UHGV virus genome: UHGV-0021747
Origin: a virus
Reading direction: 5' to 3' (one strand)
DNA length: 30,815 bases
In this document: positions 1,654 to 22,113 of the stretch, in pieces
How positions within the stretch are numbered: position 1 is the stretch's first letter
How the letters are laid out: every line of letters begins with the position of its first letter
The notes under the pieces: generated by a model
Seen by the model: only the letters and a program-made list of their open reading frames with translations
The model's database searches: none
What the model was told of the DNA's origin: nothing
Program-made: the position numbers and the translations under genes

Positions 1654-1657
1654 TAAT

Positions 1658-1894: not shown

Positions 1895-1904
1895 ACAACT
1901 AACA

Positions 1905-1927: not shown

Positions 1928-2033
1928 TTGCCATTACAAAAGCCATTCCCTACAGAGTGGCTTTGATAATGGCTTATACCCTACACGGGATAACTTAACT
2001 GATATCCCTTTTAACGGATAAACGGAGCCAACA

Positions 2034-2276: not shown

Positions 2277-2277
2277 T

Positions 2278-2457
2278 GTGAGCCGCGTAATCAATTTGGG
2301 TAAGGAGAAGAAATTCCCAATTACTCAAGAGCTATACGAGAGGCTGGAAAGCGTCATCCATGATTACGATGGTGAAATCAGTTTATGCGAGGCGATTGGC
2401 ACACTCGAATTGCTGAAGCAGTCACTGATTGAAAGCGCGAAAGAGTCCTCAGCCTGA
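2278..2457 (+). CDS. Hypothetical small protein (59 aa, GTG start)
   Basis: Hand-translated ORF not in the supplied track. GTG is 1 nt after the upstream stop with GGAG about 8 nt upstream. Fills the gap before terS. Confidence 0.3.
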   Translation: MSRVINLGKEKKFPITQELYERLESVIHDYDGEISLCEAIGTLELLKQSLIESAKESSA

Positions 2458-2474
2458 AATAACGATTAAGTGAG

Positions 2475-4312: not shown

Positions 4313-4314
4313 AC

Positions 4315-6441: not shown

Positions 6442-6454
6442 CCAGGAGTAATCA

Positions 6455-7339
6455 ATGGAAAACGAACTGATCATCGACGGTCAGGTTATTGACCTGTCTG
6501 AAACACAGGAAAATGCAGAAGAAACCATCATCCAAACAGAGTCACAGCCTGAGAATGAAAGCCAGGATGACAACGGTAAAGAGGTGGCAACTGAGCCTGA
6601 AAAAACAGAAGAGACACCAGAAGATTACGCCTTGCGTATTGGTGATGAAGAAATTCAGCTTAACGCTGACGATGATGATCACATTGACGGGCAACCTGCA
6701 CCGCAATGGGTGAAAGATCTTCGCAAAGGCTTCAAAGAAACACAGAAAGAAAACCGTGAGTTGCGCCGCCAGCTTGAGGAAGCATTAGCCAAGCCTGCGG
6801 AACATCAGCAACCACAACAAGACGCTATTCCACCAAAACCGACTCTTGAGTCGTGTGATTATGACGAACAGGCGTTTGAACAGGCATTGACTGATTGGCA
6901 TGAGAAAAAAGGCCGTGTCGAACAGCAGCAGCAACAAAAACTACGTCAGCAACAGGAATACCAACAGCGTTTCCAGCAAAGGGTAGAAGCGCATAAACAA
7001 CGGGCAGCCAAACTTCCTGTGAAAGATTATCAGGAAATGGAGGCCATTGTTCTTAGTGAGCTACCACCAATTCAGCAGGAAATCATCATTCACTGTGCAG
7101 ACGAAGGCTCTGAACTACTCGCCTATGGCTTAGGTAAGAGCCAGCAATTACGCCAGCGTGTAGCCGCTGAGACAGATCCAATTCGCGCAGCATTCCTCTT
7201 GGGGCAGATTAGCAAACAGGTAAGCCTTGCTCCAAAACCAAAGAAAGCCATCAAGCCAGAGCCGGAAGTACGTGGTGGCGGTGCTGATGCGAAACAAGAC
7301 GAATTCAACAAATTATGCCCCGGCGCAAAAATCGAATAA
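6455..7339 (+). CDS. Scaffolding protein (P22 gp8-like)
   Basis: Acidic, Gln-rich 294-aa protein between portal and coat; the C-terminal region resembles the P22 scaffold coat-binding helix-turn-helix. Confidence 0.75.
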   Translation: MENELIIDGQVIDLSETQENAEETIIQTESQPENESQDDNGKEVATEPEKTEETPEDYALRIGDEEIQLNADDDDHIDGQPAPQWVKDLRKGFKETQKENRELRRQLEEALAKPAEHQQPQQDAIPPKPTLESCDYDEQAFEQALTDWHEKKGRVEQQQQQKLRQQQEYQQRFQQRVEAHKQRAAKLPVKDYQEMEAIVLSELPPIQQEIIIHCADEGSELLAYGLGKSQQLRQRVAAETDPIRAAFLLGQISKQVSLAPKPKKAIKPEPEVRGGGADAKQDEFNKLCPGAKIE

Positions 7340-7350
7340 GGAAAAGATAA

Positions 7351-8622
7351 ATGCCTAACAATCTCGACAGTAACGTCAGTCAAATCGTTCTGAAAAAATT
7401 CCTTCCTGGTTTTATGTCAGATTTAGTTCTGGCGAAAACCGTAGACCGTCAGTTGCTGGCAGGTGAAATCAACTCCAGCACTGGCGATAGCGTTAGCTTT
7501 AAACGTCCGCATCAATTCTCATCCCTCCGTACTCCCACTGGTGATATTTCAGGGAAAAATAAAAACAACCTGATCTCAGGTAAAGCTACGGGGCGTGTAG
7601 GTAACTACATCACTGTTGCTGTTGAATATCAGCAACTGGAGGAAGCGATCAAGCTTAACCAACTGGAAGAAATTCTCGCGCCGGTTCGCCAGCGAATCGT
7701 TACCGACCTTGAAACAGAGCTTGCTCACTTCATGATGAATAACGGTGCGTTGTCACTTGGTAGCCCCAATACTCCAATCACCAAATGGTCTGATGTTGCG
7801 CAGACGGCATCTTTCCTGAAAGACCTCGGCGTTAATGAAGGTGAAAACTATGCTGTAATGGATCCATGGTCTGCACAGCGACTTGCTGATGCGCAGACTG
7901 GTTTGCACGCTTCAGATCAATTGGTTCGTACTGCATGGGAGAATGCGCAGATTCCAACCAATTTTGGCGGCATTCGCGCACTGATGTCTAATGGGCTTGC
8001 CTCTCGTACGCAGGGGGCATTTGGCGGAACACTGACAGTCAAAACACAGCCAACTGTTACCTATAACGCAGTTAAAGACTCATACCAGTTCACTGTAACA
8101 TTGACCGGAGCGACAGCCAGCGTTACAGGTTTTCTGAAAGCTGGTGATCAGGTTAAATTCACCAATACCTACTGGCTGCAACAGCAGACCAAACAGGCGT
8201 TGTATAACGGAGCCACACCAATTAGCTTCACTGCAACGGTTACTGCTGATGCTAATTCAGACAGCAGTGGCGATGTGACGGTTACACTTTCTGGTGTTCC
8301 GATTTATGACACTACAAACCCGCAGTACAACTCTGTAAGTCGTCAGGTAGCGGCAGGCGATGCCGTATCTGTAGTAGGCACTGCTAGCCAGACAATGAAG
8401 CCAAACCTGTTCTATAACAAGTTCTTCTGTGGACTTGGCTCTATCCCACTGCCGAAACTGCACAGTATTGATTCTGCTGTTGCAACATATGAAGGTTTCT
8501 CCATCCGCGTACATAAATACGCAGATGGCGATGCCAACGTGCAAAAAATGCGCTTTGACTTACTGCCTGCATATGTATGCTTTAACCCTCACATGGGCGG
8601 TCAGTTCTTCGGTAATCCGTAA
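7351..8622 (+). CDS. Major capsid (coat) protein
   Basis: 423-aa ORF in the coat position, followed by a strong terminator as in P22-like phages. Confidence 0.85.
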   Translation: MPNNLDSNVSQIVLKKFLPGFMSDLVLAKTVDRQLLAGEINSSTGDSVSFKRPHQFSSLRTPTGDISGKNKNNLISGKATGRVGNYITVAVEYQQLEEAIKLNQLEEILAPVRQRIVTDLETELAHFMMNNGALSLGSPNTPITKWSDVAQTASFLKDLGVNEGENYAVMDPWSAQRLADAQTGLHASDQLVRTAWENAQIPTNFGGIRALMSNGLASRTQGAFGGTLTVKTQPTVTYNAVKDSYQFTVTLTGATASVTGFLKAGDQVKFTNTYWLQQQTKQALYNGATPISFTATVTADANSDSSGDVTVTLSGVPIYDTTNPQYNSVSRQVAAGDAVSVVGTASQTMKPNLFYNKFFCGLGSIPLPKLHSIDSAVATYEGFSIRVHKYADGDANVQKMRFDLLPAYVCFNPHMGGQFFGNP

Positions 8623-8626
8623 TAAC

Positions 8627-8653
8627 AAGGGGCTTCCGCCCCTTTTATGTTTT
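8627..8653 (+). terminator. Rho-independent terminator after the coat gene
   Basis: Hairpin aaggggc-ttcc-gcccctt followed by ttatgtttt. Confidence 0.6.
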
Positions 8654-8664
8654 AAGGAAACAAT

Positions 8665-8850
8665 ATGGATCGCATGAGTGTATTCCTTGCCGCAGATAAC
8701 GAATCCGGACATGTACAGGCCGTTATCGCAGATAAAGACTTACTGTTTTTCGAAAAGTTGGGCTTTGTTGCCTCAGTTGATGAATTGAAACCGACCAGTA
8801 AGCGATGTCGTAAGGCGGCAGACAATGGCAACAGTACTGACAAAGGGTGA
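8665..8850 (+). CDS. Hypothetical small protein (61 aa), overlaps the gp4 start
   Basis: AAGGA Shine-Dalgarno 6 nt before the ATG; overlaps gp4 by 26 nt in another frame, so it is uncertain. Confidence 0.3.
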   Translation: MDRMSVFLAADNESGHVQAVIADKDLLFFEKLGFVASVDELKPTSKRCRKAADNGNSTDKG

Positions 8851-9307
8851 GATCGTCCTTTTTGCGCTTCGTAAGTTTGCTATTGCTTCTAATGCATCGC
8901 TGACTGATGTTGAGCCGCAATCAATTGAAGATGGTGTAAATGATCTGGAAGATATGATGTCCGAGTGGATGATTAACCCCGGCGACATTGGTTACGCTTT
9001 CGCAACTGGAGATGAGCAGCCATTACCAGATGATGAGTCAGGTCTTCCAAGAAAATACAAACACGCAGTAGGCTATCAGTTATTGCTGAGAATGCTATCT
9101 GATTACAGCCTTGAACCAACTCCGCAAGTTCTCAGTAACGCCCAACGCTCATATGATGCCTTGATGACCGACACTCTGGTTGTTCCTTCAATGCGACGAC
9201 GTGGAGATTTTCCTGTAGGACAGGGTAATAAATATGACGTGTTTACATCTGACCGATATTATCCAGGCGATCTCCCTCTGATTGATGGCGATATCCCAAA
9301 CGCATAG
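8825..9307 (+). CDS. Head completion / tail accessory factor (P22 gp4-like)
   Basis: N-terminus [42 protein letters not shown] aligns with P22 gp4 as recalled. Confidence 0.85.
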   Translation: [160 protein letters not shown]

Positions 9308-9315
9308 GTGAATAA

Positions 9316-10734
9316 ATGCCGATTCAGCAACTTCCGCTTATGAAAGGTGTCGGCAAAGACTTCCGAAACGCCGACTATATCGACTATCTGCCAGTGAATA
9401 TGTTGGCTACCCCCAAAGAAATACTCAACAGCAGCGGATATCTTCGCTCATTCCCGGGCATTGCCAAACGCTCTGATGTGAACGGTGTATCTCGCGGCGT
9501 AGAGTACAACATGGCGCAGAGTGCTGTTTATCGCGTGTGTGGTGGCAAGCTGTACAAAGGCGAAAGTGAAGTCGGTGATGTTGCCGGAAGTGGTCGCGTA
9601 TCAATGGCGCATGGTCGGACATCACAGGCGGTAGGCGTTAATGGTCAACTGGTCGAGTATCGCTATGATGGCACGGTTAAAACCGTCTCAAACTGGCCTA
9701 CTGACAGCGGATTCACACAGTACGAGTTAGGTTCAGTTCGCGACATTACGCGCTTACGTGGGCGTTATGCGTGGTCAAAAGACGGAACTGATTCATGGTT
9801 TATCACTGACCTAGAAGACGAATCGCATCCTGACCGATACAGCGCACAATATCGCGCAGAATCGCAGCCGGACGGCATCATCGGCATCGGCACATGGCGA
9901 GACTTCATCGTCTGCTTTGGTTCATCGACGATTGAATATTTCTCCCTGACTGGTGCAACCACCGTTGGTGCTTCTTTGTATGTTGCGCAACCATCGCTGA
10001 TGGTGCAGAAAGGCATTGCCGGAACTTACTGCAAAACGCCATTCGCTGATTCGTATGCGTTTATCAGCAATCCGGCAACGGGTGCGCCGTCTGTATACAT
10101 CATCGGATCAGGTCAGGTATCACCAATCGCCAGCGCGAGCATTGAGAAAATACTACGCTCCTACACTGCTGATGAACTGGCTGATGGCGTGATGGAGTCT
10201 CTGCGATTTGATGCGCATGAGCTGCTGATTATCCATCTTCCGCGCCATGTTCTCGTGTACGACGCATCTTCAAGCGCCAATGGTCCGCAATGGTGTGTGC
10301 TGAAAACGGGCCTGTATGACGATGTGTACCGCGCTATCGACTTCATTTACGAAGGCAATCAGATAACGTGCGGCGATAAGCTGGAGTCCGTGACCGGGAA
10401 ATTGCAATTCGATATCAGCAGCCAGTACGACAAGCAACAGGAACACCTGCTGTTTACTCCGTTGTTCAAAGCGGATAACGCCAGAGTGTTCGACCTTGAG
10501 GTTGAATCGTCAACTGGCGTTGCGCAGTACGCCGACCGCCTGTTCCTCTCTGCAACCACTGACGGAATAAATTACGGACGTGAGCAGATGATTGAGCAGA
10601 ATGAACCGTTCGTTTACGACAAACGCGTTTTGTGGAAGCGAGTCGGGCGCATCAGGAAAAATGTCGGCTTCAAATTGCGCGTTATCACGAAGTCACCTGT
10701 CACTCTGTCTGGCGCTCAGATAAGGATTGAGTAA
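9316..10734 (+). CDS. Tail accessory factor (P22 gp10-like)
   Basis: 472 aa, and reads as near-identical over long stretches to P22 gp10 as I recall it ([11 protein letters not shown]..., [20 protein letters not shown]...). Confidence 0.9.
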
Positions 10735-11582
10735 TGGCGGATTCGAATCTCAATGTGCCGGTAATCATTCAGGCTACACGGCTCGACACATCAGTCCTTC
10801 CACGCAATATCTTCTCGCAGTCGTATCTGCTTTACGTTATCGCACAGGGCACTGATGTTGGTAACGTGGCTAACAAGGCCAACGAGGCCGGACAGGGCGC
10901 TTATGATGCACAGGTCAGGAACGATGAGCAGGATGTGATTCTCGCTGACCATGAGCAGCGAATTTCTGCTGCGGAAGCAACGCTTGTTAATCATGAGGAG
11001 CGAATCAGCCAGGCAGAATCAACTCTTCAGGAACATGAAACACGAATAGCGCAGAATGAAAGCGATATTGCGTCGCTTGATACCAGAGTTCAGTCGCTGG
11101 AATCGCAGGTTTCAGACCATGAAACGCGCATCGATGCTCTGGAGTATGCCACTACTCGAAAGAAGTCAGAGGTTGTTTACTCTGGCGTATCAGTAACCAT
11201 CCCGACAGCGCCGACCAACCTTGTTAGCCTGCTGAAAACGCTCACGCCGTCATCCGGGACGTTGGCACCATTCTTCGACACTGTTAACAACAAGATGGTT
11301 GTGTTCAACGAGAACAAAACCTTGTTCTTCAAGCTGTCGATCGTCGGGACGTGGCCCAGCGGAACCGCCAACAGGTCAATGCAGCTAACCTTTTCCGGCT
11401 CTGTTCCTGACACACTGGTAAGCAGTCGCAACTCGGCGACAACGACCGATAACATCCTGTTAGCTACGTTTTTCAGCGTGGATAAAGACGGCTTTCTTGC
11501 CGCAAATGGCAGTACGTTAACCATCCAGTCAAATGGTGCGGCGTTTACTGCCACAACCATCAAGATAATCGCGGAGCAGTAA
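10734..11582 (+). CDS. Tail needle (P22 gp26-like) with C-terminal knob domain
   Basis: Conserved N-terminal tip, a heptad coiled-coil segment (repeated DHExRI...), and an extra C-terminal domain of about 100 aa as in Sf6/HK620-type needles. Confidence 0.85.
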
Positions 11583-12037
11583 TGATTCAGTTCAAACCAA
11601 CGCGAAACATCGACCTGATCGAAGCAGTCGGAAATCACCCTGACATTATTGCCGGGAGCAACAACGGTGATGGATACGACTACAAACCTGATTGCCGTTA
11701 CTTTGAGGTGAACGTGCACGGGCAGTTCGGCGGCATTGTTTACTATCAGGAGATTCAGCCGCTTACATTCGATTGCCACGCCATGTACCTGCCAGAGATT
11801 CGCGGATTCAGCAAGGAAATCGGGCTGGCGTTCTGGCGATACATTCTGACTAACACCACCGTTCAGTGCGTCACATCGTTCGCTGCACGCAAATTCCGCC
11901 ACGGTCAGATGTATTGCGCGATGATTGGCCTTAAGCGTGTAGGAACCATCAAGAAATACTTCAAAGGCGTGGATGACGTGACTTTTTACAGCGCCACACG
12001 CGAAGAACTAATAGACTTCCTGAATCACGGGAGATAG
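11582..12037 (+). CDS. Virion assembly protein, positional equivalent of P22 gp14
   Basis: 151-aa ORF between the needle and gp7; assigned by synteny only. Confidence 0.5.
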   Translation: MIQFKPTRNIDLIEAVGNHPDIIAGSNNGDGYDYKPDCRYFEVNVHGQFGGIVYYQEIQPLTFDCHAMYLPEIRGFSKEIGLAFWRYILTNTTVQCVTSFAARKFRHGQMYCAMIGLKRVGTIKKYFKGVDDVTFYSATREELIDFLNHGR

Positions 12038-12039
12038 CC

Positions 12040-12732
12040 ATGTTATATGCATTTAAGCTGGGCAGAAAACTGCGCGGCGAGGAACCTTATTGCCCTGAAA
12101 AAGGCGGGAAAGGTGGCAGCTCTGATAAAAGCGCAAAGTATGCCGCAGAAGCTCAGAAGTATGCAGCAGACCTGCAAAATCAGCAGTGGCAGACGATCAT
12201 GAAAAACCTTGCTCCGTTCACGCCGCTTGCGGAGCAGTATGTTAACCAGCTTCAGAACCTTTCCAGTTTAGAAGGTCAGGGGCAGGCACTTAATCAGTAT
12301 TACAATTCTCAGCAGTATAAAGACCTTGCAGGTCAGGCTCGTTACCAGAGTCTTGCTGCTGCGGAGGCGACGGGTGGACTTGGTTCGACAGCCACAAGCA
12401 ATCAACTGGCTACGATCGCGCCGACACTCGGTCAGTCTTGGTTATCAAATCAGATGAGCAATTACAACAATCTGGCAAACGTTGGGCTTGGTGCGCTGCA
12501 AGGTCAGGCAAACGCTGGGCAGACATACGCCAACAACATGAGCAGCATTGCACAGCAAAGCGCAGCACTTGCCGCTGCTAATGCCAATAAATCATCAAGT
12601 CTTCAGACTGCAATTAGCGGTGGCACGTCTGGTGCGATTGCCGGTGCAGGTCTTGCCAGCCTTTTGGGAACATCAACGCCTTGGGGCGCTGGCATTGGTG
12701 CTGGTATCGGATTGCTTGGCTCGTTGTTTTAA
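12040..12732 (+). CDS. Ejection (internal virion) protein, P22 gp7-like
   Basis: Position plus composition: Gln/Ala/Gly-rich with a Gly-rich hydrophobic C-terminus. Confidence 0.75.
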   Translation: MLYAFKLGRKLRGEEPYCPEKGGKGGSSDKSAKYAAEAQKYAADLQNQQWQTIMKNLAPFTPLAEQYVNQLQNLSSLEGQGQALNQYYNSQQYKDLAGQARYQSLAAAEATGGLGSTATSNQLATIAPTLGQSWLSNQMSNYNNLANVGLGALQGQANAGQTYANNMSSIAQQSAALAAANANKSSSLQTAISGGTSGAIAGAGLASLLGTSTPWGAGIGAGIGLLGSLF

Positions 12733-12741
12733 GGGGTAATC

Positions 12742-14130
12742 ATGGCTACTTGGCAAGGAACAAACGGCGGATTGTTGGCTGGTATCGGCGGCGTCAACTC
12801 AAACGCTCCAAGCGTAAATGACATCGGCAATACGCTTCAGCTTATCAGGCAGAACAATGATATTGAGCGTTCAGGCGCTAACAATGTTGGGCTGACTGCT
12901 TTGCAAGGCCTTTCAGGTATTGCAGGGGTGTTTCAGCAGGAAAAGCAGGCTCAGCGGCAGAAAGAATTTCAGCAGGCATACGCTAATGCTTATGCGTCTG
13001 GTGATCGCGGTGCTTTGCGCCAGTTGGCTACTCAATATCCAGACCAGATTGAATCCGTTCGTAAAGGCATGGGATTCATTGATGAAGATCAGCGTAATTC
13101 TATCGGCACCTTAGCGGCTGGCGCACGCCTTGCATCATCGTCTCCAGAAGCAATGCAATCATGGCTGCAAAACAACGCCAAGGAACTGACTCGCGTCGGT
13201 GTTGACCCTAACAGCGTTGCTCAGATGTATCAGCAGAATCCTTCAGGATTTGGTGAGTTTGTTGATCACCTTGGAATGGCTGCTCTTGGTCCGATTGATT
13301 ACTTCAATGTTCAGGACAAGATGGCAGGTCGTGAGATTGACCGAGGCAGGCTGGCAGAGACAATCCGCAGCAATCAGGCTGGAGAGGCGCTAACAGCACG
13401 AGGTCAGAACATCACGATGCGCGGTCAGGACTTATCTGCTTCTACTGCGCGACGAGGTCAGGATTTGGCTATGCAGCGAGCGTCAACAAGAGGAATCGCT
13501 GGGAATGATGAGCGTACAGTTCAGTTATCAGATGGCAGAACTGTAACGGTAGGCGGGAAGCTTCACGGAGCTGGGGCTAATGCGTTCTACGAAGGCATCG
13601 ACAACGAGGGGAATATGGTTCGCGTCCCTGCCAGTTCAATCGCTGCGCCTGCAACATCGTCTGCATCAGCACAAAACTATGCCATGAAGAAGGATATCGA
13701 CGCGATCGCAAATGCAGACGCTTCTGCTCTCGATTTCATGACAGGAATGACCGGCGGTGCAGGTAACCCGGCAATTGGTGCTGATGTTCGCAGCCGATTA
13801 ACAGGAAAAGAGCAGCGCCAGTTATATAACTCAGCACAACGTATTCAGGGCAGAATGCAGAATCAGGGTGTGGCGGCAGCAAGGGACATGGGTGCCAGTG
13901 GTATTAACACCGTTGCAGAAGCGAAGATGTATTTTCAGGGGATGCCGCAGGTTGACTATTCAAGCCCGGAGGCTATGCAGCAGTCGATTCGTGAGATTCA
14001 GGAATACACCAACAATTACAACCAACAATATAACGTTACTGTTGGTAAATCTCAGCGGCAGCAATCTCAACCTGCACAGGTATCACAGCCAGCAGCCAGC
14101 AGTAACTTTTCTTCACTATGGGGTGATTAA
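12742..14130 (+). CDS. Ejection protein, P22 gp20-like
   Basis: 462-aa ORF in the conserved position; composition typical of E-proteins. Confidence 0.75.
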
Positions 14131-16127
14131 TGGCTAAAGCATGGAAAGATGTTATCGCCTCTCCACAGTATCAGGCGTTAGCACCAGAACAAAAAGCGCA
14201 GGCTCAGGAGCAATACTTCAATGAAGTCGTGGCCCCGCAAGCCGGAGAAAATGCAGAGCAGGCTAAGCAAGCTTTCTATGCTGCCTATCCATTGCCATCT
14301 GTGCAGCAAGTGGAGACACAGCAACCAGTTGCACAGCAACAACCACAGCAAAGTGGATTTATGTCTGATCTTGGCGAAGCAGTAAAAGAGACTGGTCGCG
14401 GACTGGTGCAGGCTGGCGTGAACGTGGCAAACATACCTGCATCAGTTGCCGATGCTGTAACAAGCGCGGCGGCTTGGGCTGGCGGTAAACTCGGCATTGG
14501 CGATGGTACATATCAACCAGCGCCACGAGTAACAACGCAGGGATTAGAGCAGGACTTTGGCCTTCAGCAAGGCGCGCTGACTCCACAAACGACAGAGGGA
14601 AGGGTATTTGCTGAAGCATTGCCTTACCTCACTCCTGCTGGCGTTGAGAGAGCGGCAACACAGGCACCAACACTTGCTGGTCGAATTGCTCAGGGGGCAA
14701 CTCGCCTTCTAGCAGAAAACGCAGTTGGATCACTTGCTGCAAATAGTGCGAAAGATGATGCGGAAGCACTCGCTACCGATTTAGGTGTTGGAGTTCTGGC
14801 AGGCGGCGCTATTAACGCTGCTGGACGTGGATTAGGTGCTGCTTATCGTGGTGTTCGTGGTTCGATATCACCCGAAGCGCAACAGGCTATCAAGTTTGCA
14901 GAGCGTGAAGGCGTGCCTCTGCACACCACAGACCTGTTACAACCGACTTCCCGCATCGGTAAAATGGCGCAGACGACAGCGGAAAATATCCCTCTGGCTG
15001 GCACAAGCGGAATGAGAGCAACGCAACAGGAAGCGAGAAGCCAGTTGGTGCAGAGATTTGCTGATAAATTCGGTGAGTATGATCCAGCTGTTGTTATTGA
15101 CAGCCTTAAAGCGAAAACATCAGGAATTCGTCGTGCTGCAGGGAACCGTCTTGAGCAGGTTCAGAATGCAATGGCGGGAGTCAATATCCAGCCTGCTCGA
15201 GCAATTCAGCAGATTGATACAGAAATATCTAACCTGCAGAAGCTTGGTAAGGTCGCCGATAACGAGACTATTTCAAAACTTCAGTCCTATCGTGATGAGC
15301 TTGTTCGCAATGCTGGTCCTGATGGTCCGGTAAATCTGGATTTGAAGCAATTAAGCGACCTGCGCAGCCAGTTCAGAATGGACGTGAAGGGTGAGCGACC
15401 AGTGTTACCAAACCGTTCCGATGCTGCCATTCAGCGCGTTTACAAGGCGATGACAGACGATATCAATGGTGCCATTGGTCAGAATCTTGGCAACGATACT
15501 CTCCGTAAATATCAGCAGGCCAATGCCGTATACGCTGACGAAGCGGCGAAACTAAAGAATACCAGGCTGAAGAATGTTCTCATGAAAGGCGATCTGACGC
15601 CGGAAGTTGTCAACAACATGCTATTCAGCAAGAACAAATCGGAAATTAAGACTCTGTATAACTCAGTTGGTCGTGTTGGCAGGGCGCAAATGCGCAATGG
15701 CATCATTGGAAAGGCGATGGAGAAATCAGGTGGTTCCCCTGACCAGTTCCTTCGGCAGCTTAACATCCTGCAAAACCAGACTGGCATCACATTTAAAGGT
15801 CAGGAAGCCGCTTATCTGAAAGGATTGAAAAACTACCTGCAATCCACGCAGCAGGCTGCAAAAGCGGCAGTAACAACACCAACAGGGCAGCAAACCATCC
15901 CGTTCATTATCGGGTATGGGACGGCAATGAACCCGGCGACAACTGCCGCAGCGGTAAGCTACGGACTTCTTACTCGCGCCTATGAGAGCGAGCCATTCAG
16001 AAATGCAATGCTCCGAATGGCAAACACCCCACGCGGATCAACAGCGTTTGAGAAAGCCATGCAGCAGGCGCAAAAGGCCATTAACGCCCTGACTCAAGGT
16101 GCCAAGTCTGATGCGTTGTCAGAATAG
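14130..16127 (+). CDS. Ejection protein, P22 gp16-like
   Basis: 665-aa ORF in the conserved position, coupled to the upstream gene by an ATGA overlap. Confidence 0.75.
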   Translation: MAKAWKDVIASPQYQALAPEQKAQAQEQYFNEVVAPQAGENAEQAKQAFYAAYPLPSVQQVETQQPVAQQQPQQSGFMSDLGEAVKETGRGLVQAGVNVANIPASVADAVTSAAAWAGGKLGIGDGTYQPAPRVTTQGLEQDFGLQQGALTPQTTEGRVFAEALPYLTPAGVERAATQAPTLAGRIAQGATRLLAENAVGSLAANSAKDDAEALATDLGVGVLAGGAINAAGRGLGAAYRGVRGSISPEAQQAIKFAEREGVPLHTTDLLQPTSRIGKMAQTTAENIPLAGTSGMRATQQEARSQLVQRFADKFGEYDPAVVIDSLKAKTSGIRRAAGNRLEQVQNAMAGVNIQPARAIQQIDTEISNLQKLGKVADNETISKLQSYRDELVRNAGPDGPVNLDLKQLSDLRSQFRMDVKGERPVLPNRSDAAIQRVYKAMTDDINGAIGQNLGNDTLRKYQQANAVYADEAAKLKNTRLKNVLMKGDLTPEVVNNMLFSKNKSEIKTLYNSVGRVGRAQMRNGIIGKAMEKSGGSPDQFLRQLNILQNQTGITFKGQEAAYLKGLKNYLQSTQQAAKAAVTTPTGQQTIPFIIGYGTAMNPATTAAAVSYGLLTRAYESEPFRNAMLRMANTPRGSTAFEKAMQQAQKAINALTQGAKSDALSE

Positions 16128-16216
16128 CTTCGCAAACACCAGGAACGTGCAAAAACCAAATATGTAGAACGCAATATTCAGCATATCTCTTTGCATAAAT
16201 CCTCCGTAACTGATAG

Positions 16217-16510
16217 TTAGCTGCTGTCTTTTTTATATAGCTCTTTGAGCGTATCAAAGACAATTTTCTTTACCATATCGGATTGTTGTTCTGCCATACG
16301 CTCTGCATCGTCAATGTAAACTGATGCAGAGCTTTGTTTAGTCAATGATTCTTCAATCGCTGCAATTATCTCTGAGTTCAGCGACCTGTTATTCATCTTC
16401 GCACGCTGTTTAATTTTCGCGTGAAGTTCATGCGGAAGTCTCAAGTGAAACTGCGCCTCGTCGTATTTGCTGTACATCCTTGATGCCTCACCAGTTGGGT
16501 GGAATGGCAT
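16217..16510 (-). CDS. mnt: Mnt-like ribbon-helix-helix repressor (likely start at the internal Met, 16477)
   Basis: C-terminal half ...RSLNSEIIAAIEESL...DDAERMAEQQSDMVKKIVFDTLKELYKK matches P22 Mnt closely as recalled; the N-terminal DNA-recognition strand differs. Confidence 0.8.
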   Translation of the reverse strand: MPFHPTGEASRMYSKYDEAQFHLRLPHELHAKIKQRAKMNNRSLNSEIIAAIEESLTKQSSASVYIDDAERMAEQQSDMVKKIVFDTLKELYKKDSS

Positions 16511-16550
16511 CGTAACCTACTGGATAAATACTCAATAGTACCATTTCGGT

Positions 16551-16573
16551 ATGCAATCACATCATGGTTGCAT
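16551..16573. promoter_or_regulatory. Inverted repeat ATGCAA-N11-TTGCAT between mnt and tailspike; candidate operator
   Basis: Seen directly in the sequence; sits in the divergent mnt/tailspike intergenic region. Confidence 0.3.
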
Positions 16574-16598
16574 CATATCATTCGTCTGGAGCAATGAA

Positions 16599-17090
16599 AT
16601 GTCAGATATCACCGCAAATGTTGTGGTAAGCATGCCTTCGCAACTCTTCACTATGGCTCGTTCTTTTAAAGCCGTAGCCAATGGCAAAATTTATATCGGT
16701 AAAATTGGCACTGACCCGGTAAATCCTGAAAACCAGATTCAGGTTTATGTGGAAAACGAAGACGGTTCTCACGTTCCTGTTGCACAGCCAATCATCATTA
16801 ACGCTGGCGGGTATCCTGTATATAACGGACAGATTGCCAAATTCGTAACTGTGCAAGGCCATTCTATGGCTGTATACGATGCGTACGGTTCTCAGCAGTT
16901 CTATTTTCCGAATGTGCTGAAGTATGACCCTGACCAGTTTGAGCAAAGGTTCATGGATGAAATTAGTTCGCCAGACGGTTACAAAATAATAGGTGGGTTA
17001 GAGGTCAGGCTTTCTGTATACGATATAGCTGCTGCTGATGGTGAAAGAAATAGCGATCAGTTGAATTCTTTTTTTGCTGAGTTTAAATGA
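16599..17090 (+). CDS. Tailspike N-terminal head-binding domain, ending at an in-frame TGA
   Basis: [11 protein letters not shown]...[34 protein letters not shown]...[15 protein letters not shown]...NVLKYDPDQ matches the P22 gp9 N-terminal domain as recalled. GGAG Shine-Dalgarno 8 nt upstream of the ATG. Confidence 0.85.
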
Positions 17091-17096
17091 ACTCCA

Positions 17097-18845
17097 GTGA
17101 AAATCTACTCAACTATGCCACTGACTTTCACTATCGACAAAGAGACAACGTTATACGGAGATTTTGATCTCAGCAATTGCACGTTCAACCTGGCTGGCGG
17201 TAAGATTGTTTATGCTGATGAGAGAGACGCATCTACATACATTAAAGATTTTACACCATCAGCATATCCATTAAACGAGCTAACTTCCGCGCTAACATTT
17301 ACAGAGTCAACCACTGGATGGGATAATTCCTTAGTTAAGATGTCTGGTACTGAAATTGACTTGTACCGATTGCTTGGCAGCACTTTCACGCCAAAATACA
17401 AAGGTGAAGTTAACCTACTAACCAAAGGAAGTGATTTAGCGTATACATTTAAGAATACATACAACTCTTCACTTATCTGTACTTTATATAAGCTGCCTGT
17501 GCGAAGGACTGTCATTGTATTGCCTAAGTTATCAGGGACGTTTACTGGCACGGCTGTTGATATCAAAAGGTCTATGGTTGATGTAAGGGTTAATTATGAT
17601 AATACCTTAGGAGCAATACCCATCAACTCTGCAATTTTTGGTAGTAGTAATACATACGGTGTTAATTGGTATTTGTGCTCATCGGGGATGACACAACCTG
17701 ATTCTGAATCTCGCTACACATTGACTCTAGAGTTTACTCTGAAGCATTCTTTTTTTAGCACTGTTGTTGGGAAAGGGTGGCGTTCTATTGATGGTAATTA
17801 TAGCCGTGACACTGTGGTAAGAGATTGCACTGTTGATAGCTTCAATCTTCATTATGGATCGTCTAAGGTTTTGATAGACAATTGCAGGATAATTAATGGC
17901 GCGGCTTTTGGTACTGGCGCTTTTGATGAATCAACGCAGATTATAAACTCAGATATTGGTCCCTTTGGGATTCGCACTGACTATGGAGAGCATAAGGGGG
18001 ATTTTATTGTCAAAGGGGGTTCGGTAAGAATATCATCGGACAAAACTGGGCTTGTAGATCTCTTCACATGCAGGTGTGATAATGTTGTTTCCACTGGTAG
18101 CCCTGTTCAGCCTAGAGCATTAAATCTGCCAAAAAATGTAATTATATCTACAAATATCTACTGGCCTGACGCAGTCACACTTAACATTGTTTCATTTAAA
18201 AATAATTTTAAGACACAAAATAGCATTATTCGTGATTTCATTATGCCTGGCGTTATAGATTTCTCCGGAAGCACCTTTAATGGTAAAAATGCAAGATTTG
18301 AGTGGGCCATCTCTTACCATGATTCAACTTCCAGAGAAATATCAATAGTCAATCTGACACCTGCGAAATCAATTGTTTGTAAGGTTTTAGCTTATATTGG
18401 ATACCTGAATGAGTATGCATCATGCCTTTATGGTCTTGAGAGCAATATGGACATAACTTTCATGAACTTTACGTCTGGAATGTCTCGCAGCTATATTAGG
18501 CTGGAAGGTGGGGTGCTGCGCAGGTTTGTTGGTTACTCCGGAGGGACAACCTATATGTTAGGAAGCGTGTATTTTGATAAGTCGTTGATAGATTGGGATT
18601 CAAGCAATAACCTAGTTTCAGGACTTATGTCGGTGTCTGATTGCCTTATAGACGGAACGAGGGCCAAAGGAACATCGTCCAGTAAGCCTGTTGTAAATAC
18701 ATTCGTGCACAGATCTGCAAATAATATTTGCCATGAAATTATTGCTACAGACTCAAGGGATGTGGTTGATAAGAAGTTCGCTTTATGCAGCAGGGAAGGT
18801 GCAGCAGGCAACTTCTCTACAGGAGAAATACCTATCTCTTACTAA
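17097..18845 (+). CDS. Putative tailspike receptor-binding (beta-helix-like) module, in frame with 16599..17090 across one TGA
   Basis: Same frame as the upstream ORF; no Shine-Dalgarno before GTG 17097 or ATG 17115. AT-rich, Ser/Thr/Asn/Gly/Ile-rich composition typical of tailspike beta-helix domains. Confidence 0.55.
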   Translation: MKIYSTMPLTFTIDKETTLYGDFDLSNCTFNLAGGKIVYADERDASTYIKDFTPSAYPLNELTSALTFTESTTGWDNSLVKMSGTEIDLYRLLGSTFTPKYKGEVNLLTKGSDLAYTFKNTYNSSLICTLYKLPVRRTVIVLPKLSGTFTGTAVDIKRSMVDVRVNYDNTLGAIPINSAIFGSSNTYGVNWYLCSSGMTQPDSESRYTLTLEFTLKHSFFSTVVGKGWRSIDGNYSRDTVVRDCTVDSFNLHYGSSKVLIDNCRIINGAAFGTGAFDESTQIINSDIGPFGIRTDYGEHKGDFIVKGGSVRISSDKTGLVDLFTCRCDNVVSTGSPVQPRALNLPKNVIISTNIYWPDAVTLNIVSFKNNFKTQNSIIRDFIMPGVIDFSGSTFNGKNARFEWAISYHDSTSREISIVNLTPAKSIVCKVLAYIGYLNEYASCLYGLESNMDITFMNFTSGMSRSYIRLEGGVLRRFVGYSGGTTYMLGSVYFDKSLIDWDSSNNLVSGLMSVSDCLIDGTRAKGTSSSKPVVNTFVHRSANNICHEIIATDSRDVVDKKFALCSREGAAGNFSTGEIPISY

Positions 18846-18851
18846 AGGTCA

Positions 18852-18875
18852 AGCCATGCGCTAACGCATGGCTTC
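18852..18875. terminator. Bidirectional terminator hairpin between the convergent tailspike and acyltransferase genes
   Basis: Perfect palindrome agccatgcg-ctaa-cgcatggct followed by ctaattttac on the + strand. Confidence 0.5.
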
Positions 18876-18880
18876 TAATT

Positions 18881-20029
18881 TTACTTTGAAAAGATCGCGG
18901 CAAATCTATGGGAAACCTCGATGCTTTTTCTGTCGATGAGCAAATAAAAGATGTAAGAACATGCATAAAGCATCACCACTGATATTAAAACAGCTGATAA
19001 ACATGCGCTGGAGTCGCTCATGATTTTCCTTGATTCATGATAAACTGGCCCTGATAAGCAATAAAATACAGGCATTTGAATCAAGTATGCCGAGAATGAT
19101 AACTTTCCTAAAAAGACCATGATTTTTGATTCAGAAAACCATGACATAACCCCAATCTTACATAGGGAATATACCACTCCAATTCCAGATAATAGATTGA
19201 AAAGCAAGTATACATTTATTTTCTCAATGCTGTGAATAGATAATGAAAATTCTTTTAACCATGCGTAAAGATAATGATTATATTTAAATCCAGCCAAGTA
19301 AAGTGATGCAATAAGAATTGCATATCCAATAACCTTATTCTTATATGAACCGCATAAACATATAGCCATACCAAAAAGGAATGATGCGTACCCATATGCA
19401 TTTTTATCATTAAAGTTAATTATGATTAAAACTGCGATTAAAGATAATATTAGCGGTGCTTTTTTAATAAAGATAGAAATAGGAGATATCAAAAAGACAA
19501 GGAGAGAACCATAAAACTCAACCTGCATAGTCCATGTAACCATATTTATTGATGAGTCACCTTTGAGTATGGAGCCATATAGTGAGTTTTTTAAAACTCC
19601 TATCACAGATAAATCACCATCTTTACCCAATGACCAAATCCACGGAACCCAATACTTATTGAAAGGGAAGTAATTTACAACAATTGCGCAAATAATAATC
19701 GATGCCGAAACTGGTATTAATAATCTTACATACCTTTCTAGCAGCATCTTTGCGGACTTCTTAGATATACAACCAGACCTGAAAATAACACTTGTAAGTA
19801 TATATCCGCTTAATACAAAGAATATATATACAGCTGAAGTTCCAGAGTAAGTGAAGCCTATTGGTAAATCTCTTGTCACCGCATCAAAAGAAGACTTAAT
19901 TATCTTTGTGTCTCCAGTATGCAGGTAAGGGAAAAAAATTATTGATAGATGAGAAAGCACTACCATCAAGCAGGCCAACCCCCTCACACCCTCTACCGAA
20001 AGAACCTTGCCACCATCAATCTTATTCAT
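18881..20029 (-). CDS. Acyltransferase family 3 integral membrane protein (putative O-antigen/surface polysaccharide acyltransferase)
   Basis: 382 aa from ATG at 20029 (the supplied ORF extends to TTG at 20050). Multi-pass hydrophobic profile and an N-terminal ...GVRGLACLMVVLSHL motif typical of acyltransferase-3. Strongly AT-rich. Confidence 0.8.
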   Translation of the reverse strand: MNKIDGGKVLSVEGVRGLACLMVVLSHLSIIFFPYLHTGDTKIIKSSFDAVTRDLPIGFTYSGTSAVYIFFVLSGYILTSVIFRSGCISKKSAKMLLERYVRLLIPVSASIIICAIVVNYFPFNKYWVPWIWSLGKDGDLSVIGVLKNSLYGSILKGDSSINMVTWTMQVEFYGSLLVFLISPISIFIKKAPLILSLIAVLIIINFNDKNAYGYASFLFGMAICLCGSYKNKVIGYAILIASLYLAGFKYNHYLYAWLKEFSLSIHSIEKINVYLLFNLLSGIGVVYSLCKIGVMSWFSESKIMVFLGKLSFSAYLIQMPVFYCLSGPVYHESRKIMSDSSACLSAVLISVVMLYACSYIFYLLIDRKSIEVSHRFAAIFSK

Positions 20030-20192
20030 ATAATTTCCGTATATGCACAAAGTTAGTGTGCATTAATAAAAGATAATACCCCTACTTGCATAACAGATAG
20101 CACGTGTAACTAAACGCTGAGCAATCAGAGGTTTCCGTAATTATCTGAGTTTATCACTCAAATCTCTATTGATCGACACCACCGATCGACAA

Positions 20193-20212
20193 TGCTGTGT
20201 TCATATACAGTA
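20193..20212. promoter_or_regulatory. LexA (SOS) box tgCTGTgttcatatACAGta
   Basis: CTGT-N8-ACAG with flanks close to the E. coli consensus, 18 bp upstream of the umuD'-like ATG and just upstream of its GGAGG Shine-Dalgarno. Confidence 0.55.
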
Positions 20213-20229
20213 ACTACCGGAGGTGAGTT

Positions 20230-20621
20230 ATGGGATTACCGATCCCGGCTGCTGATTACGTTGAGAACCGCCTGTCGCTTGATGAGAGATTCATCCACAA
20301 ACCGTATGCTACCTACTACATGAAAGCGTCAGAGACAATCTATCGCTTCGGCATTATGAAAGATGCGCTGCTGGTCATCGACTCGTCGCTACCCACCCCC
20401 TGTGATGGCTCATTGCTGGTTTGTGAGTTTGTGAGATAGTGGGTGAGTTCAAGGTGAAGATTTACCGAACATATCCTCAGCTTCATCTTGAGAACGCACT
20501 GAACGGGCGAAAAGAAAAGTTGCCTTGTCACTTTGGCGGGATAGAGACGGTATTTGGGGTGATCACGTGCATCATCAACGATGCGCGTACAGGTGAGTTT
20601 GATGGCTACCCGCTGAAGTGA
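20230..20621 (+). pseudogene. umuD'/humD-like gene split by a frameshift (8-bp tandem duplication tttgtgag at 20420..20435)
   Basis: ORFs 20230..20439 and 20439..20621 together align with UmuD residues about 25 to 139 as recalled (PAADYVE..., GEFxVK, VFGVI). Deleting one repeat copy restores a single 129-aa frame. The GDSM catalytic motif is replaced by ETIY. Confidence 0.6.
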
Positions 20622-20630
20622 AAATAGTGT

Positions 20631-20928
20631 TGTGTACCAAATTGCGTACCAAACTAAAATCACAAATCATGAAACCCTTGTTCATGGCGGTTCTCAGGGG
20701 TATTGCGCGTAATCGTGAAAGAGGAAGGTAGGTTGTTTATCTGTGTCTGTCATTGTCTAGCATTGTCCACTGTAGTTAATTAACTGTCTGTTATAACTCG
20801 AAAAACAACCATTTTTTCACCTGAGTATGTCTACGAACGTCAAATATAGTTGTTTACTGTGCGCTGTTGTCCATGTGATATTGTGTACCAGATGTGTACC
20901 AAACCATTATTTCTGAGCGTACCAAATA
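20631..20928. other. Putative attP: five GTACCA(A/G)A arm-type repeats flanking a ~230-bp AT-rich core
   Basis: Repeats at 20634, 20647, 20885, 20896 and 20920, immediately upstream of int; typical of integrase arm sites. Confidence 0.45.
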
Positions 20929-20934
20929 TTATTT

Positions 20935-22113
20935 ATGGCTATAAGCGACACAAAACTGCGTACTATTTATGGTAAACCATATTCGGGCCCACAAGAAGTG
21001 GCTGATGCCGATGGCCTCAGCGTACGAATTTCACCGAAGGGGGTCATCCAGTTCCAGTACCGCTATCGCTGGCATGGCAAGCCTAATCGACTTGGGCTTG
21101 GTCGATACCCATCCCTGTCTTTGAAGGATGCCAGACAGATCACTGCTGACTTGCGAAAGCTCTATTTCTCAGGAACGGATCCACGCACCTATTTTGAAGA
21201 GAAGGTGGAGAACTCCATGACGGTCGCCCAGTGTCTCGACTACTGGTTCGACAACTACGTCTCTACAACTCTCAGAGAAAAGACCCAGGCACTTTACCGA
21301 TCAACGGTTATGAAGCGCATGCATGACGCCTTTCCTAATCGTCCGGCATCTTCTATCACGGTTAAGCAATGGGTTGACCTGCTTACCGAAGAAGAAAGAG
21401 ATAATCCACGCCGAGCAAGGCAGGTGCTAAGTCAACTAAGATCAGCAATAAGTTGGTGCATGCGGCGTCAGTTGATAGATAGTTGCGCAATTATGAGCAT
21501 CCAACCAAGGGACTTCGGCTCCCGCGCTGAGGTAGGGGATCGGGTACTGTCGTATCACGAACTGGCTAAGATTTGGCTTGCTATTGAAAGAAGCCGTGCG
21601 TCTACGTCAAATAAGCTCCTTCATCAGATGCTTATGCTGTGGGGGGCGAGGCTCTCAGAGCTTAGGCTGGCAACAAAGACAGAATTTGACCTGCTGGACA
21701 ACGTATGGACCGTACCGAAAGAGCATAGCAAGATGGGTAATGTTATCCGCCGTCCAATCTTCGAACAAATTAAGCCTTTTCTCGAAAAGGCCATGACAAC
21801 GTACAATGATGTTCTTTTCCCTGGAGAAGACATAAACAAACCGATCAGCATCGCTGCAGCCAACCGATTCGTAAATAGAATAAGGGGAGGGATGGATCTG
21901 GGTTACTGGCGAACACATGATTTCAGAAGAACGCTTGTTACACGTCTGTCCGAGATGAATGTCGAGCCTCATGTTACTGAGCGAATGCTCGGTCATGAAC
22001 TTGGCGGGATAATGTCCGTATACAATAAACACGACTGGATAGAGGCTCAGCGCAAAGCGTATGAGCTTCACGCTGATAAATTGTTCTGGCACATCAGGAG
22101 CATTTCTGATTAA
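20935..22113 (+). CDS. int: Tyrosine integrase (P4-like, N-terminal arm-binding domain)
   Basis: N-terminus ...DGLSVRISPKGVIQFQYRYRWHGKPNRLGLGRYPSLSLKDAR is the arm-type DNA-binding domain signature; C-terminus has HDFRRT...LGH...VYNKHDW catalytic motifs. Confidence 0.9.
   Translation: MAISDTKLRTIYGKPYSGPQEVADADGLSVRISPKGVIQFQYRYRWHGKPNRLGLGRYPSLSLKDARQITADLRKLYFSGTDPRTYFEEKVENSMTVAQCLDYWFDNYVSTTLREKTQALYRSTVMKRMHDAFPNRPASSITVKQWVDLLTEEERDNPRRARQVLSQLRSAISWCMRRQLIDSCAIMSIQPRDFGSRAEVGDRVLSYHELAKIWLAIERSRASTSNKLLHQMLMLWGARLSELRLATKTEFDLLDNVWTVPKEHSKMGNVIRRPIFEQIKPFLEKAMTTYNDVLFPGEDINKPISIAAANRFVNRIRGGMDLGYWRTHDFRRTLVTRLSEMNVEPHVTERMLGHELGGIMSVYNKHDWIEAQRKAYELHADKLFWHIRSISD

What the first reader, a model, noticed from the sequence alone, without database searches (positions are those of the whole stretch)
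18881..20029. Convergent AT-rich acyltransferase-3 gene paired with the tailspike: likely receptor-modifying lysogenic conversion module
A 382-aa multi-pass membrane acyltransferase-3 family protein is encoded opposite the tailspike and shares a terminator hairpin with it (18852..18875). This is the layout seen with the O-antigen acetyltransferase of Sf6. It differs in length from the 333 aa I recall for Sf6 Oac and is strongly AT-rich, so it may have a different substrate. Together with the swapped tailspike module it suggests a co-evolving pair of receptor-binding and receptor-modifying functions.
Basis: partly seen in the sequence, partly recalled or inferred. Interest (0 to 1): 0.5.

Follow-up and report, generated by a model that had tools for sequence, protein, structure and literature searches.

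The report
Phage acyltransferase paired with tailspike
A P22-like temperate phage carries, tail-to-tail with its tailspike gene, an intact membrane acyltransferase that most likely acetylates the host's surface polysaccharide receptor; this is a well-known kind of lysogenic conversion gene, here in an uncharacterised subfamily.

Summary
Window 18881..20029 (-) encodes a 382-aa AT3 (PF01757) membrane acyltransferase with every AT3 catalytic motif. It is 34% GC against a 49% backbone. It converges on the tailspike gene across a 35-nt gap holding a 10-bp hairpin (18851..18874). The layout matches Sf6 tailspike/oac, but the protein is only a remote relative of Sf6 Oac.

Related loci add three points:
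- A collinear 3-kb block (tailspike receptor-binding domain, hairpin, AT3) is shared with an Enterobacter hormaechei prophage that has a different tailspike N-terminus and different neighbouring genes.
- The same AT3 allele (99%) also sits beside a receptor-binding allele only 70% identical. Homologous receptor-binding domains occur with an empty slot or with gtrABC in the same position. The two genes are linked but reassort, so co-evolution is not shown.
- AT3 relatives down to about 30% identity, including in Acinetobacter, usually lie convergent with a tail spike gene.

Best reading: a prophage-expressed O-acyltransferase that modifies the polysaccharide the tailspike targets, probably O-antigen. 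The substrate is inferred, not shown.

This is a new member of a known kind, of modest interest. In this window the tailspike itself carries a premature TGA at 17088.

The parts
18881..20029 (-). AT3 (PF01757) integral-membrane acyltransferase gene, 382 aa. Carries the motifs R16-x10-H27, V67xxFFxLSGY76, R99xxR102 and W166TxxxE171.
   Evidence: Under purifying selection against the L011 homolog (pN 0.19, pS 0.80).
18851..18874 (.). 10-bp stem, 4-nt loop hairpin in the 35-nt gap between the two convergent stop codons. Terminator-like on the + strand.
   Evidence: A strong hairpin of different sequence sits in the equivalent gap of all seven other AT3/tailspike pairs checked, Sf6 included; L019's is nearly identical to the window's.
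16596..18845 (+). P22-type tailspike gene, 748 codons when intact. The head-binding domain is followed by a beta-helix receptor-binding/depolymerase part. In this window it is interrupted by TGA at 17088..17090.
16970..20008 (.). Collinear block (tailspike neck and receptor-binding domain, hairpin, AT3) shared at 73% nt identity with an Enterobacter hormaechei prophage (L011) whose tailspike N-terminus and neighbouring genes differ.
17088..17090 (+). Premature in-frame stop. GGA (Gly) in 8 of 8 related loci is TGA here. A second G-to-T change lies at 17070.
20030..20229 (-). Upstream region of the AT3 gene. It holds only weak sigma-70-like matches (20168..20140, 9 of 12) and a 7-bp inverted repeat, ATGCACA-N7-TGTGCAT, at 20043..20063, 14 nt before the ATG.
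   Evidence: Read directly from the sequence; function not tested.
20230..20439 (+). Truncated humD (umuD-like) remnant, 69 aa covering profile positions 1-65 of 129. It separates the AT3 gene from attP and int.
   Evidence: A LexA-box-like CTGT-N8-ACAG lies at 20195..20210.
20935..22113 (+). Tyrosine integrase. attP lies near 20737, where homology to the integrated prophages L008 and L010 ends.

Best explanation
The gene encodes a stand-alone AT3 membrane O-acyltransferase carried as a lysogenic conversion gene (moron) by a P22-like temperate phage.

Proposed mechanism: the protein is made in the lysogen and sits in the inner membrane. It takes an acyl group, most likely acetyl from acetyl-CoA, through its transmembrane pore using the R-x10-H and RxxR motifs. 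It transfers the group to a sugar of the surface polysaccharide that the neighbouring tailspike binds and cleaves, most probably the O-antigen repeat unit. The modified receptor should then be a poorer substrate for that tailspike, which would reduce superinfection and change the serotype.

The gene, the hairpin and the tailspike receptor-binding domain form a compact unit at the att end of the prophage. This unit can move between phage backbones, but its two genes also recombine independently.

Shown: family membership, intact motifs, purifying selection, convergent architecture and its recurrence, cassette sharing and reassortment, and the depolymerase-like fold of the tailspike.

Inferred: expression from the prophage, the acyl donor, the acceptor glycan, and the effect on adsorption.

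The confidence of 0.72 is for 'receptor-polysaccharide-modifying conversion acyltransferase'. For O-antigen specifically as the acceptor I would say about 0.55.
For: - Family: PF01757 at E 4.5e-25. All motifs that the AT3 literature defines as essential are present and invariant or nearly so in 34 homologs: R16, H27, F70, F71, S74, G75, R99, R102, W166, T167, E171. The helical model is confident.
- Constraint: pN 0.19 against pS 0.80 relative to the 70%-identical homolog.
- Layout: same as the experimentally characterised Sf6 tailspike/oac pair.
- Linkage: in 9 of 10 Escherichia loci carrying the 99.5%-identical AT3, the same tailspike is adjacent. The tenth (L004) retains the AT3 beside int and the last 65 codons of the tailspike; no other phage structural genes are called there.
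- Slot occupancy: phages whose tailspikes have a homologous receptor-binding domain carry gtrABC in the same convergent slot in E. hormaechei (L021) and Proteus (L022). Others have the slot empty. The Hafnia AT3 relative follows gtrABC.
- Recurrence: AT3 relatives at 34-43% identity in Proteus, E. coli, Hafnia and A. baumannii prophages are convergent with a tail spike or tail fibre gene. Among 39 IMG/VR relatives most have a long convergent ORF just downstream, and 8 of 10 tested match tail spike or fibre PHROGs.
- Tailspike fold: the receptor-binding part is predicted as a beta-helix. Its best PDB matches are phage polysaccharide depolymerase tailspikes.
Against: - No relative closer than remote family level has been characterised. 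Sf6 Oac is 24-30% identical over part of the length. There are no NCBIfam equivalog hits and no papers on this protein.
- The acceptor glycan is unknown. Beta-helix tailspikes also target capsules. The best structural match is a Klebsiella K64 capsule depolymerase, and the Acinetobacter relatives must act on something other than O-antigen.
- No convincing consensus promoter lies upstream of the gene.
- The Cronobacter relative is chromosomal with no phage genes nearby, so the family is not exclusively phage-linked.
- Reassortment of AT3 and receptor-binding alleles shows that the functional coupling, if any, is loose.
Confidence: 0.72

Rival explanations
1. Same enzyme type and the same receptor-masking logic, but the acceptor is a capsular or other exopolysaccharide (K antigen, O-antigen capsule, colanic acid, ECA) rather than LPS O-antigen.
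For: - The top structural matches of the receptor-binding domain include capsule depolymerases: Klebsiella K64 ORF41, Acinetobacter AP22 gp54 and a Klebsiella K1 lyase.
- Relatives at 34% identity sit next to tail spikes in A. baumannii prophages. From general knowledge, A. baumannii has capsule but no O-antigen.
- Nearly the same AT3 (same >90% cluster) occurs in both E. coli and E. hormaechei, which argues for a glycan shared across genera.
Against: - The same slot holds gtrABC in relatives, and one AT3 relative lies directly after gtrABC. From the literature, gtrABC is an O-antigen-specific system.
- P22-like tailspikes with this N-terminus that have been characterised mostly target O-antigen (Sf6, HK620, P22). 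CUS-3, which targets K1 capsule, is an exception.
Confidence: 0.2
2. The acyltransferase is a passenger gene unrelated to the phage receptor. It might acylate peptidoglycan, periplasmic glucans or a secreted molecule, and it sits next to the tailspike only because the att-proximal end is a permissive insertion site.
For: - AT3 proteins have many substrates (review PMC9558356).
- A chromosomal, non-phage relative exists in Cronobacter.
- The slot is empty in several related phages.
Against: - The convergent pairing with a tail spike gene recurs across very different phage types and genera, in relatives down to about 30% identity.
- The gene travels in one collinear block with the receptor-binding domain.
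- There is no match to NCBIfam equivalogs for other AT3 functions.
Confidence: 0.05
3. The gene is a decaying or inactive remnant in a defective phage. The tailspike next to it already carries a nonsense codon.
For: - Premature TGA in the tailspike of this scaffold.
- A truncated humD lies next door.
- A 332-aa truncated AT3 variant exists in the cluster.
Against: - The reading frame is full-length and all catalytic motifs are intact.
- The protein is 99.5% identical to copies in at least 79 contigs.
- There is strong purifying selection against the Enterobacter homolog.
- The gene is retained even in a remnant with no phage structural genes called (L004).
Confidence: 0.03

Closest known systems
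Oac (OacA) of Shigella phage Sf6: stand-alone AT3 O-antigen O-acetyltransferase
   Same: - Stand-alone AT3 membrane protein in a P22-like phage.
- Convergent with the tailspike gene, with a hairpin or terminator in a gap of about 33-35 nt, on the int/att side.
- Shares the R-x10-H, FFxxSG and RxxR motifs.
   Different: - 382 aa against 333 aa.
- Only 30% identity over 99 aa by BLASTP, and 24% over 193 columns by hhalign; the C-terminal half does not align.
- tblastn against 50,697 phage records does not recover Sf6, Sf101 or other known phage Oac genes even at E <= 1.
- The paired tailspike receptor-binding domain is unrelated to the Sf6 endorhamnosidase domain: only the N-terminal part matches Sf6.
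O-acetyltransferase of E. coli O157 phage PhiV10, which lies in an epsilon15-like phage (the genome position of that gene is recalled from memory, not checked here)
   Same: Relatives of the window protein lie between the tail spike gene and the holin/lysis genes, next to very large virion protein genes. This holds for the 70% relative (L011) and the 40-43% relatives (L013, L018). I read that arrangement as epsilon15-like from memory. The PhiV10 enzyme is reported to modify the O157 antigen (review PMC9558356).
   Different: No sequence similarity to a PhiV10 gene was detected by tblastn of the phage collection. The window phage itself is P22-like, not epsilon15-like.
gtrABC O-antigen glucosylation cassettes of P22-like and other temperate phages
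   Same: They occupy the same genomic slot: immediately downstream of and convergent with a tailspike whose receptor-binding domain is homologous (44-55% aa) to the window's. The presumed role is the same, namely modifying the receptor.
   Different: Different chemistry (glucosylation through Und-P-glucose) and three genes instead of one.
OafA/OafB (AT3-SGNH) O-antigen acetyltransferases of Salmonella
   Same: AT3 domain with the same essential motifs. OafB is prophage-encoded (BTP1) and protects against the BTP1 tailspike.
   Different: The window protein has no fused periplasmic SGNH domain. It ends after the last transmembrane helix. PHROG 6705 'O-antigen acetylase' (647-position profile) matches only residues 66-122.
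Acyltransferase ORF081 of Pantoea phage PA-1
   Same: It is the only isolated phage genome in the collection with a full-length relative (28.6% identity, 98% coverage). It lies directly after the tail spike gene and before the integrase.
   Different: It is co-directional with the tail spike, not convergent. It is uncharacterised and only distantly related.

Membership tests
Acyltransferase-3 (AT3, PF01757) membrane acyltransferases | Significant match to the PF01757 profile over most of its length | tested here: met
   E 4.5e-25, 88.8 bits against a cut-off of 31; residues 11-354 match profile positions 3-325 of 326.
Acyltransferase-3 (AT3, PF01757) membrane acyltransferases | R/K-x10-H motif in TMH1 (catalytic His), as defined in PMC9833829 and PMC9558356 | tested here: met
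   R16-x10-H27. H27 is invariant and R16 is conserved in at least 90% of 34 homologs. Motif definition.
Acyltransferase-3 (AT3, PF01757) membrane acyltransferases | RxxR motif at the cytoplasmic face of TMH3 | tested here: met
   R99-Y-V-R102, both invariant in the 34-sequence alignment.
Acyltransferase-3 (AT3, PF01757) membrane acyltransferases | V-x-x-F-F-x-(I/V/L)-S-G-(F/W/Y) motif | tested here: met
   V67-Y-I-F-F-V-L-S-G-Y76, with F70, F71, S74 and G75 invariant.
Acyltransferase-3 (AT3, PF01757) membrane acyltransferases | Polytopic membrane protein with about 10 transmembrane helices | tested here: met
   The AlphaFold2 model is all-helical (pLDDT 89.6) and, with the hydropathy scan, gives about 10 hydrophobic helices. 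No solved AT3 structure was found to superpose.
Acyltransferase-3 (AT3, PF01757) membrane acyltransferases | Acyl-CoA-dependent acyl transfer to an extracytoplasmic carbohydrate | not testable with these tools
   Needs biochemistry or genetics.
Sf6 Oac / Shigella Oac subfamily (OacA-D) | Close sequence relationship to Oac over the full length | tested here: not met
   30% identity over 99 aa (E 3e-4). hhalign aligns only the N-terminal 193 columns at 24% identity. tblastn against the phage collection recovers no Shigella phage oac.
Phage lysogenic-conversion O-antigen modification modules | Located at the tailspike/att/int end of a temperate phage, transcribed independently of the late operon (opposite strand) | tested here: met
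   The window order is tailspike (+), AT3 (-), humD remnant, attP, int. In integrated copies the gene lies at the prophage end next to the host flank.
Phage lysogenic-conversion O-antigen modification modules | Expressed in the lysogen | not testable with these tools
   Only weak promoter-like matches upstream. Needs transcript data.
Phage lysogenic-conversion O-antigen modification modules | Alters the O-antigen and reduces adsorption of the cognate phage | not testable with these tools
   Indirect support only: gtrABC in the same slot of related phages, and a depolymerase-like tailspike.
AT3-SGNH two-domain acetyltransferases (OafA/OafB/OatA) | C-terminal periplasmic SGNH domain fused to the AT3 domain | tested here: not met
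   382 aa with PF01757 as the only Pfam domain. The model ends with a transmembrane helix at 339-381.

The most novel reading that the evidence does not exclude
The tailspike receptor-binding domain, hairpin and AT3 gene may form a mobile 'receptor cassette' that is exchanged between unrelated podovirus lineages and between Escherichia and Enterobacter. The reassortment seen here pairs the same AT3 allele with receptor-binding alleles 70% identical. That could record an arms race in which one receptor-binding variant has adapted to bind or cleave the acylated form of the glycan that its own partner produces. If so, the AT3 would shift, rather than simply block, receptor specificity.
Probability: 0.12. 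Interest if true: 0.55.

Novelty: new member of a known kind. Interest (0 to 1): 0.3.

Why it matters
If the enzyme acetylates an E. coli or Enterobacter O-antigen, it defines a new prophage-borne serotype-converting factor. It is seen in at least 79 Escherichia contigs, and the same >90% cluster includes E. hormaechei proteins. That would be relevant to serotyping, to O-antigen vaccine epitopes and to phage-therapy host range.

The comparative data also give a clean natural example of how receptor-binding and receptor-modifying genes are packaged. The slot next to the tailspike is filled alternatively by AT3, by gtrABC or by nothing. The unit moves between phage backbones and also reassorts internally.

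None of this changes current concepts. It extends the Sf6, PhiV10 and P22 paradigm to an uncharacterised AT3 subfamily.

Tried and rejected
- Megablast and blastn of the cassette against 5,426 complete E. coli genomes. No genome holds the AT3 gene. Only 3 records from 2 strains hold a 67% receptor-binding relative, both with an empty slot. I could therefore not infer an O-serogroup from named strains.
- tblastn against 50,697 phage genomes. Only Pantoea PA-1 has a full-length relative.
- NCBIfam and PADLOC scans gave nothing useful.
- PDB sequence search with the AT3 profile found no relative.
- Foldseek of the AT3 model against PDB and BFVD gave only noise, apart from one unnamed 637-aa viral protein at TM 0.48.
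- Rfam scan of 16000..21500 found no RNA family.
- The paper on E. coli tailspike/serogroup modularity (PMC10408124) mentions none of the phages carrying this receptor-binding domain.
- Accession searches found no paper on this protein.
- I considered a two-gene tailspike (adaptor plus separate receptor-binding protein) to explain the split ORFs. I rejected it because 8 of 8 related loci read GGA where the window has TGA, and they encode one 748-aa protein.

Full report
**1. Observation**

Window 18881..20029 (-) is an open reading frame of 382 codons starting at ATG 20029. The mechanical ORF list extends it to a TTG at 20050. It matches Pfam PF01757 (Acyl_transf_3) at E 4.5e-25 across residues 11-354, and PHROG 3333 'O-acetyltransferase' at E 1e-25.

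The gene is 34.3% GC. The receptor-binding part of the tailspike is 39.9% GC, and the structural-gene backbone (window 1-16500) is 48.7%.

The gene's stop codon lies 35 nt from the stop codon of the convergent tailspike gene (18845). The gap holds a perfect hairpin at 18851..18874 with a 10-bp stem and a 4-nt loop, at -17 kcal/mol. The z-score is -4.6 on one strand and -4.2 on the other. The pattern scan calls it terminator-like only on the + strand, because the T-run follows the stem on that side only.

The Sf6 record shows tailspike (+), an annotated terminator, oac (-) of 333 aa, and then int.

**2. The protein**

The AT3 literature defines an absolutely conserved R-x10-H motif in TMH1, an RxxR motif on the cytoplasmic face of TMH3, and a VxxFFx(I/V/L)SG(F/W/Y) motif (PMC9833829 and PMC9558356).

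The window protein has R16-x10-H27, V67YIFFVLSGY76, R99YVR102 and W166TMQVE171. In an alignment of 34 homologs down to 30% identity, these residues are invariant or nearly so.

An AlphaFold2 model built on that alignment is confident (pLDDT 89.6, pTM 0.90) and all-helical, with about ten hydrophobic helices. It has no extra soluble domain, so this is an 'AT3-only' protein like Sf6 Oac and not an AT3-SGNH fusion like OafA/OafB.

Against the 70%-identical Enterobacter homolog, synonymous sites are saturated (pS 0.80) while pN is 0.19. The gene is therefore under purifying selection.

It is not an Oac orthologue. BLASTP against Sf6 Oac aligns 99 residues at 30% identity. Profile comparison gives 94.9% probability over the N-terminal 193 columns at 24% identity. 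tblastn against 50,697 phage genomes returns only Pantoea phage PA-1 (28.6%), even at E <= 1. No NCBIfam equivalog matches.

**3. The surroundings**

The window is a P22-like phage in vegetative gene order: terminase, portal, coat, the ejection proteins, mnt, tailspike, AT3, a truncated humD, attP, int, then the early-left genes. It is the ENA metagenome scaffold ERZ28614137 scaffold_3472.

The tailspike has the P22 head-binding domain. This is followed by a 582-residue part with no Pfam match that is predicted as a beta-helix. Its best PDB matches are phage polysaccharide depolymerase tailspikes: Klebsiella K64 ORF41, AP22 gp54, LKA1 gp49, phi297 gp61 and HK620.

In this window the tailspike frame is broken by TGA at 17088..17090. 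Eight related loci all read GGA there, and where the gene is called it encodes one 748-aa protein. A second G-to-T difference lies 18 nt upstream. I could not tell whether this is a real mutation or an assembly error, because the other contigs with this exact AT3 do not reach that position.

**4. Related loci**

The 99%-identical protein (P0001) heads a >90%-identity cluster of 73 member sequences. It is named only 'acyltransferase family protein' and is seen on at least 79 Escherichia contigs. The same >90% cluster includes E. hormaechei proteins.

In 9 of 10 loci fetched, the 99.5%-identical tailspike is its convergent neighbour. These loci sit at two different integration sites (argW/yfdC and dacD) with two different integrases. 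The tenth locus (L004) keeps the integrase, the AT3 and the last 65 codons of the tailspike; no other phage structural genes are called there.

*Cassette transfer.* An E. hormaechei prophage (L011) carries an AT3 that is 70% identical. Its neighbouring genes are holins and an endolysin on one side and very large virion proteins on the other, and its 843-aa tail spike has a different N-terminus. That AT3 is convergent with a tail spike whose last 582 residues are 87% identical to the window's. At the DNA level this is one collinear 3056-nt alignment, window 16970..20008. It runs from just after the head-binding domain to just inside the AT3 start.

*Reassortment.* In the E. coli P22-like prophage L019, the AT3 is 99.2% identical but the receptor-binding domain only 70%. 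Nucleotide identity drops from about 95% to about 60-70% near 17130. It returns to 99-100% near 18790, just before the tailspike stop.

*Alternative slot contents.* Phages whose tail spikes have a homologous receptor-binding domain (44-70% aa) carry different things in the slot:
- Nothing after the tail spike in L020, L024 and L025.
- A convergent gtrA-gtrB-gtrC cluster in L021 (E. hormaechei) and in L022 and L023 (Proteus).

*Family-wide pattern.* AT3 relatives at 34-43% identity show the following:
- In Proteus mirabilis, E. coli and A. baumannii prophages they are convergent with a tail spike or fibre gene unrelated to the window's.
- In Hafnia the gene follows gtrABC and converges on the tail-spike genes.
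- In Cronobacter it is chromosomal with no phage genes nearby.
- Among 39 relatives in IMG/VR viral contigs, most have a long convergent ORF immediately downstream. Eight of the ten I scanned match tail spike or fibre PHROGs.
- All eight AT3/tail-spike gaps I folded, the window's and Sf6's included, contain a strong hairpin (-14 to -23 kcal/mol). The hairpin sequences differ, except that L019's is nearly identical to the window's.

**5. Interpretation**

The evidence fits a prophage-borne conversion gene whose product acylates the polysaccharide recognised by the neighbouring tailspike. O-antigen is the most likely acceptor, for two reasons. The O-antigen-specific gtrABC system fills the same slot in related phages. 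The characterised precedents in this position (Sf6, and OafB of BTP1) act on O-antigen.

A capsular or other exopolysaccharide acceptor is not excluded. The acyl donor, expression in the lysogen and any effect on adsorption are inferred. The upstream region offers only weak promoter-like matches and a 7-bp inverted repeat just before the start codon.

The two genes are tightly linked and have travelled together, but alleles reassort and the slot is optional.

**6. Novelty and verdict**

No paper mentions this protein, and no characterised enzyme is close. Even so, the kind of element is textbook: an AT3 conversion gene beside a tailspike. I rate it a new member of a known kind, with interest 0.3.

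The most novel reading still open is that the cassette is a mobile receptor unit whose receptor-binding variants track the acylation state produced by the partner enzyme. I give that a probability of about 0.12.

Noticed in passing
window 17088..17090 (also 17070): The tailspike gene is cut by an in-frame TGA after codon 164, just past the head-binding domain. Eight related loci read GGA there. A second G-to-T difference lies 18 nt upstream. If real, this phage cannot attach its receptor-binding domain to virions. It could also be an assembly or sequencing error in the metagenome scaffold.
   Followed up: partly
window 20043..20063 (- strand leader of the AT3 gene): Perfect 7-bp inverted repeat, ATGCACA-N7-TGTGCAT, ending 14 nt upstream of the AT3 start codon. 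It could be an operator or a leader hairpin.
   Followed up: no
window 20195..20210 and 20230..20439: A LexA-box-like CTGT-N8-ACAG lies 20 nt upstream of a truncated humD (umuD-like) gene of 69 aa (profile length 129). The motif occurs twice in the window, and 7 of 100 shuffles reach two matches. An SOS-regulated promoter may still fire towards attP and int.
   Followed up: partly
window 20007..20034 (+ strand): The best sigma-70-like match in the region (TTGCCA-16-TATAAT, 11 of 12) lies inside the first codons of the AT3 gene on the opposite strand. It points towards humD, attP and int.
   Followed up: no
L004 9426..11383: An E. coli locus keeps the integrase, the humD remnant, the intact AT3 gene and the last 65 codons of the tailspike, with no other phage structural genes called. 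The AT3 appears to have been retained after prophage decay.
   Followed up: partly
L017 4217..8146 (Hafnia alvei prophage): gtrA-gtrB-gtrC is followed directly by an AT3 relative (41.6% identical). All four genes converge on the tail-spike genes, giving a double (glucosylation plus acylation) conversion module.
   Followed up: no
L010 11149..14356: In this E. coli prophage copy, homology to the window ends inside mnt (about 13640) and the next called gene is the tail gene gp10 (PF11134). The ejection-protein genes between mnt and gp10 therefore appear to be deleted, while the AT3 and tailspike sequences remain 99.5% identical to the window's.
   Followed up: no
window 16970..17087 and loci L020, L021, L022: The roughly 40-residue 'neck' just upstream of the receptor-binding domain (tailspike residues 122-164) is conserved at 63-74% identity in tail spikes with three different N-terminal adaptors: the P22 head-binding domain, Tail_spike_N, and the N-terminus seen in L011, L020 and L022. 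It marks the left recombination boundary of the module.
   Followed up: partly
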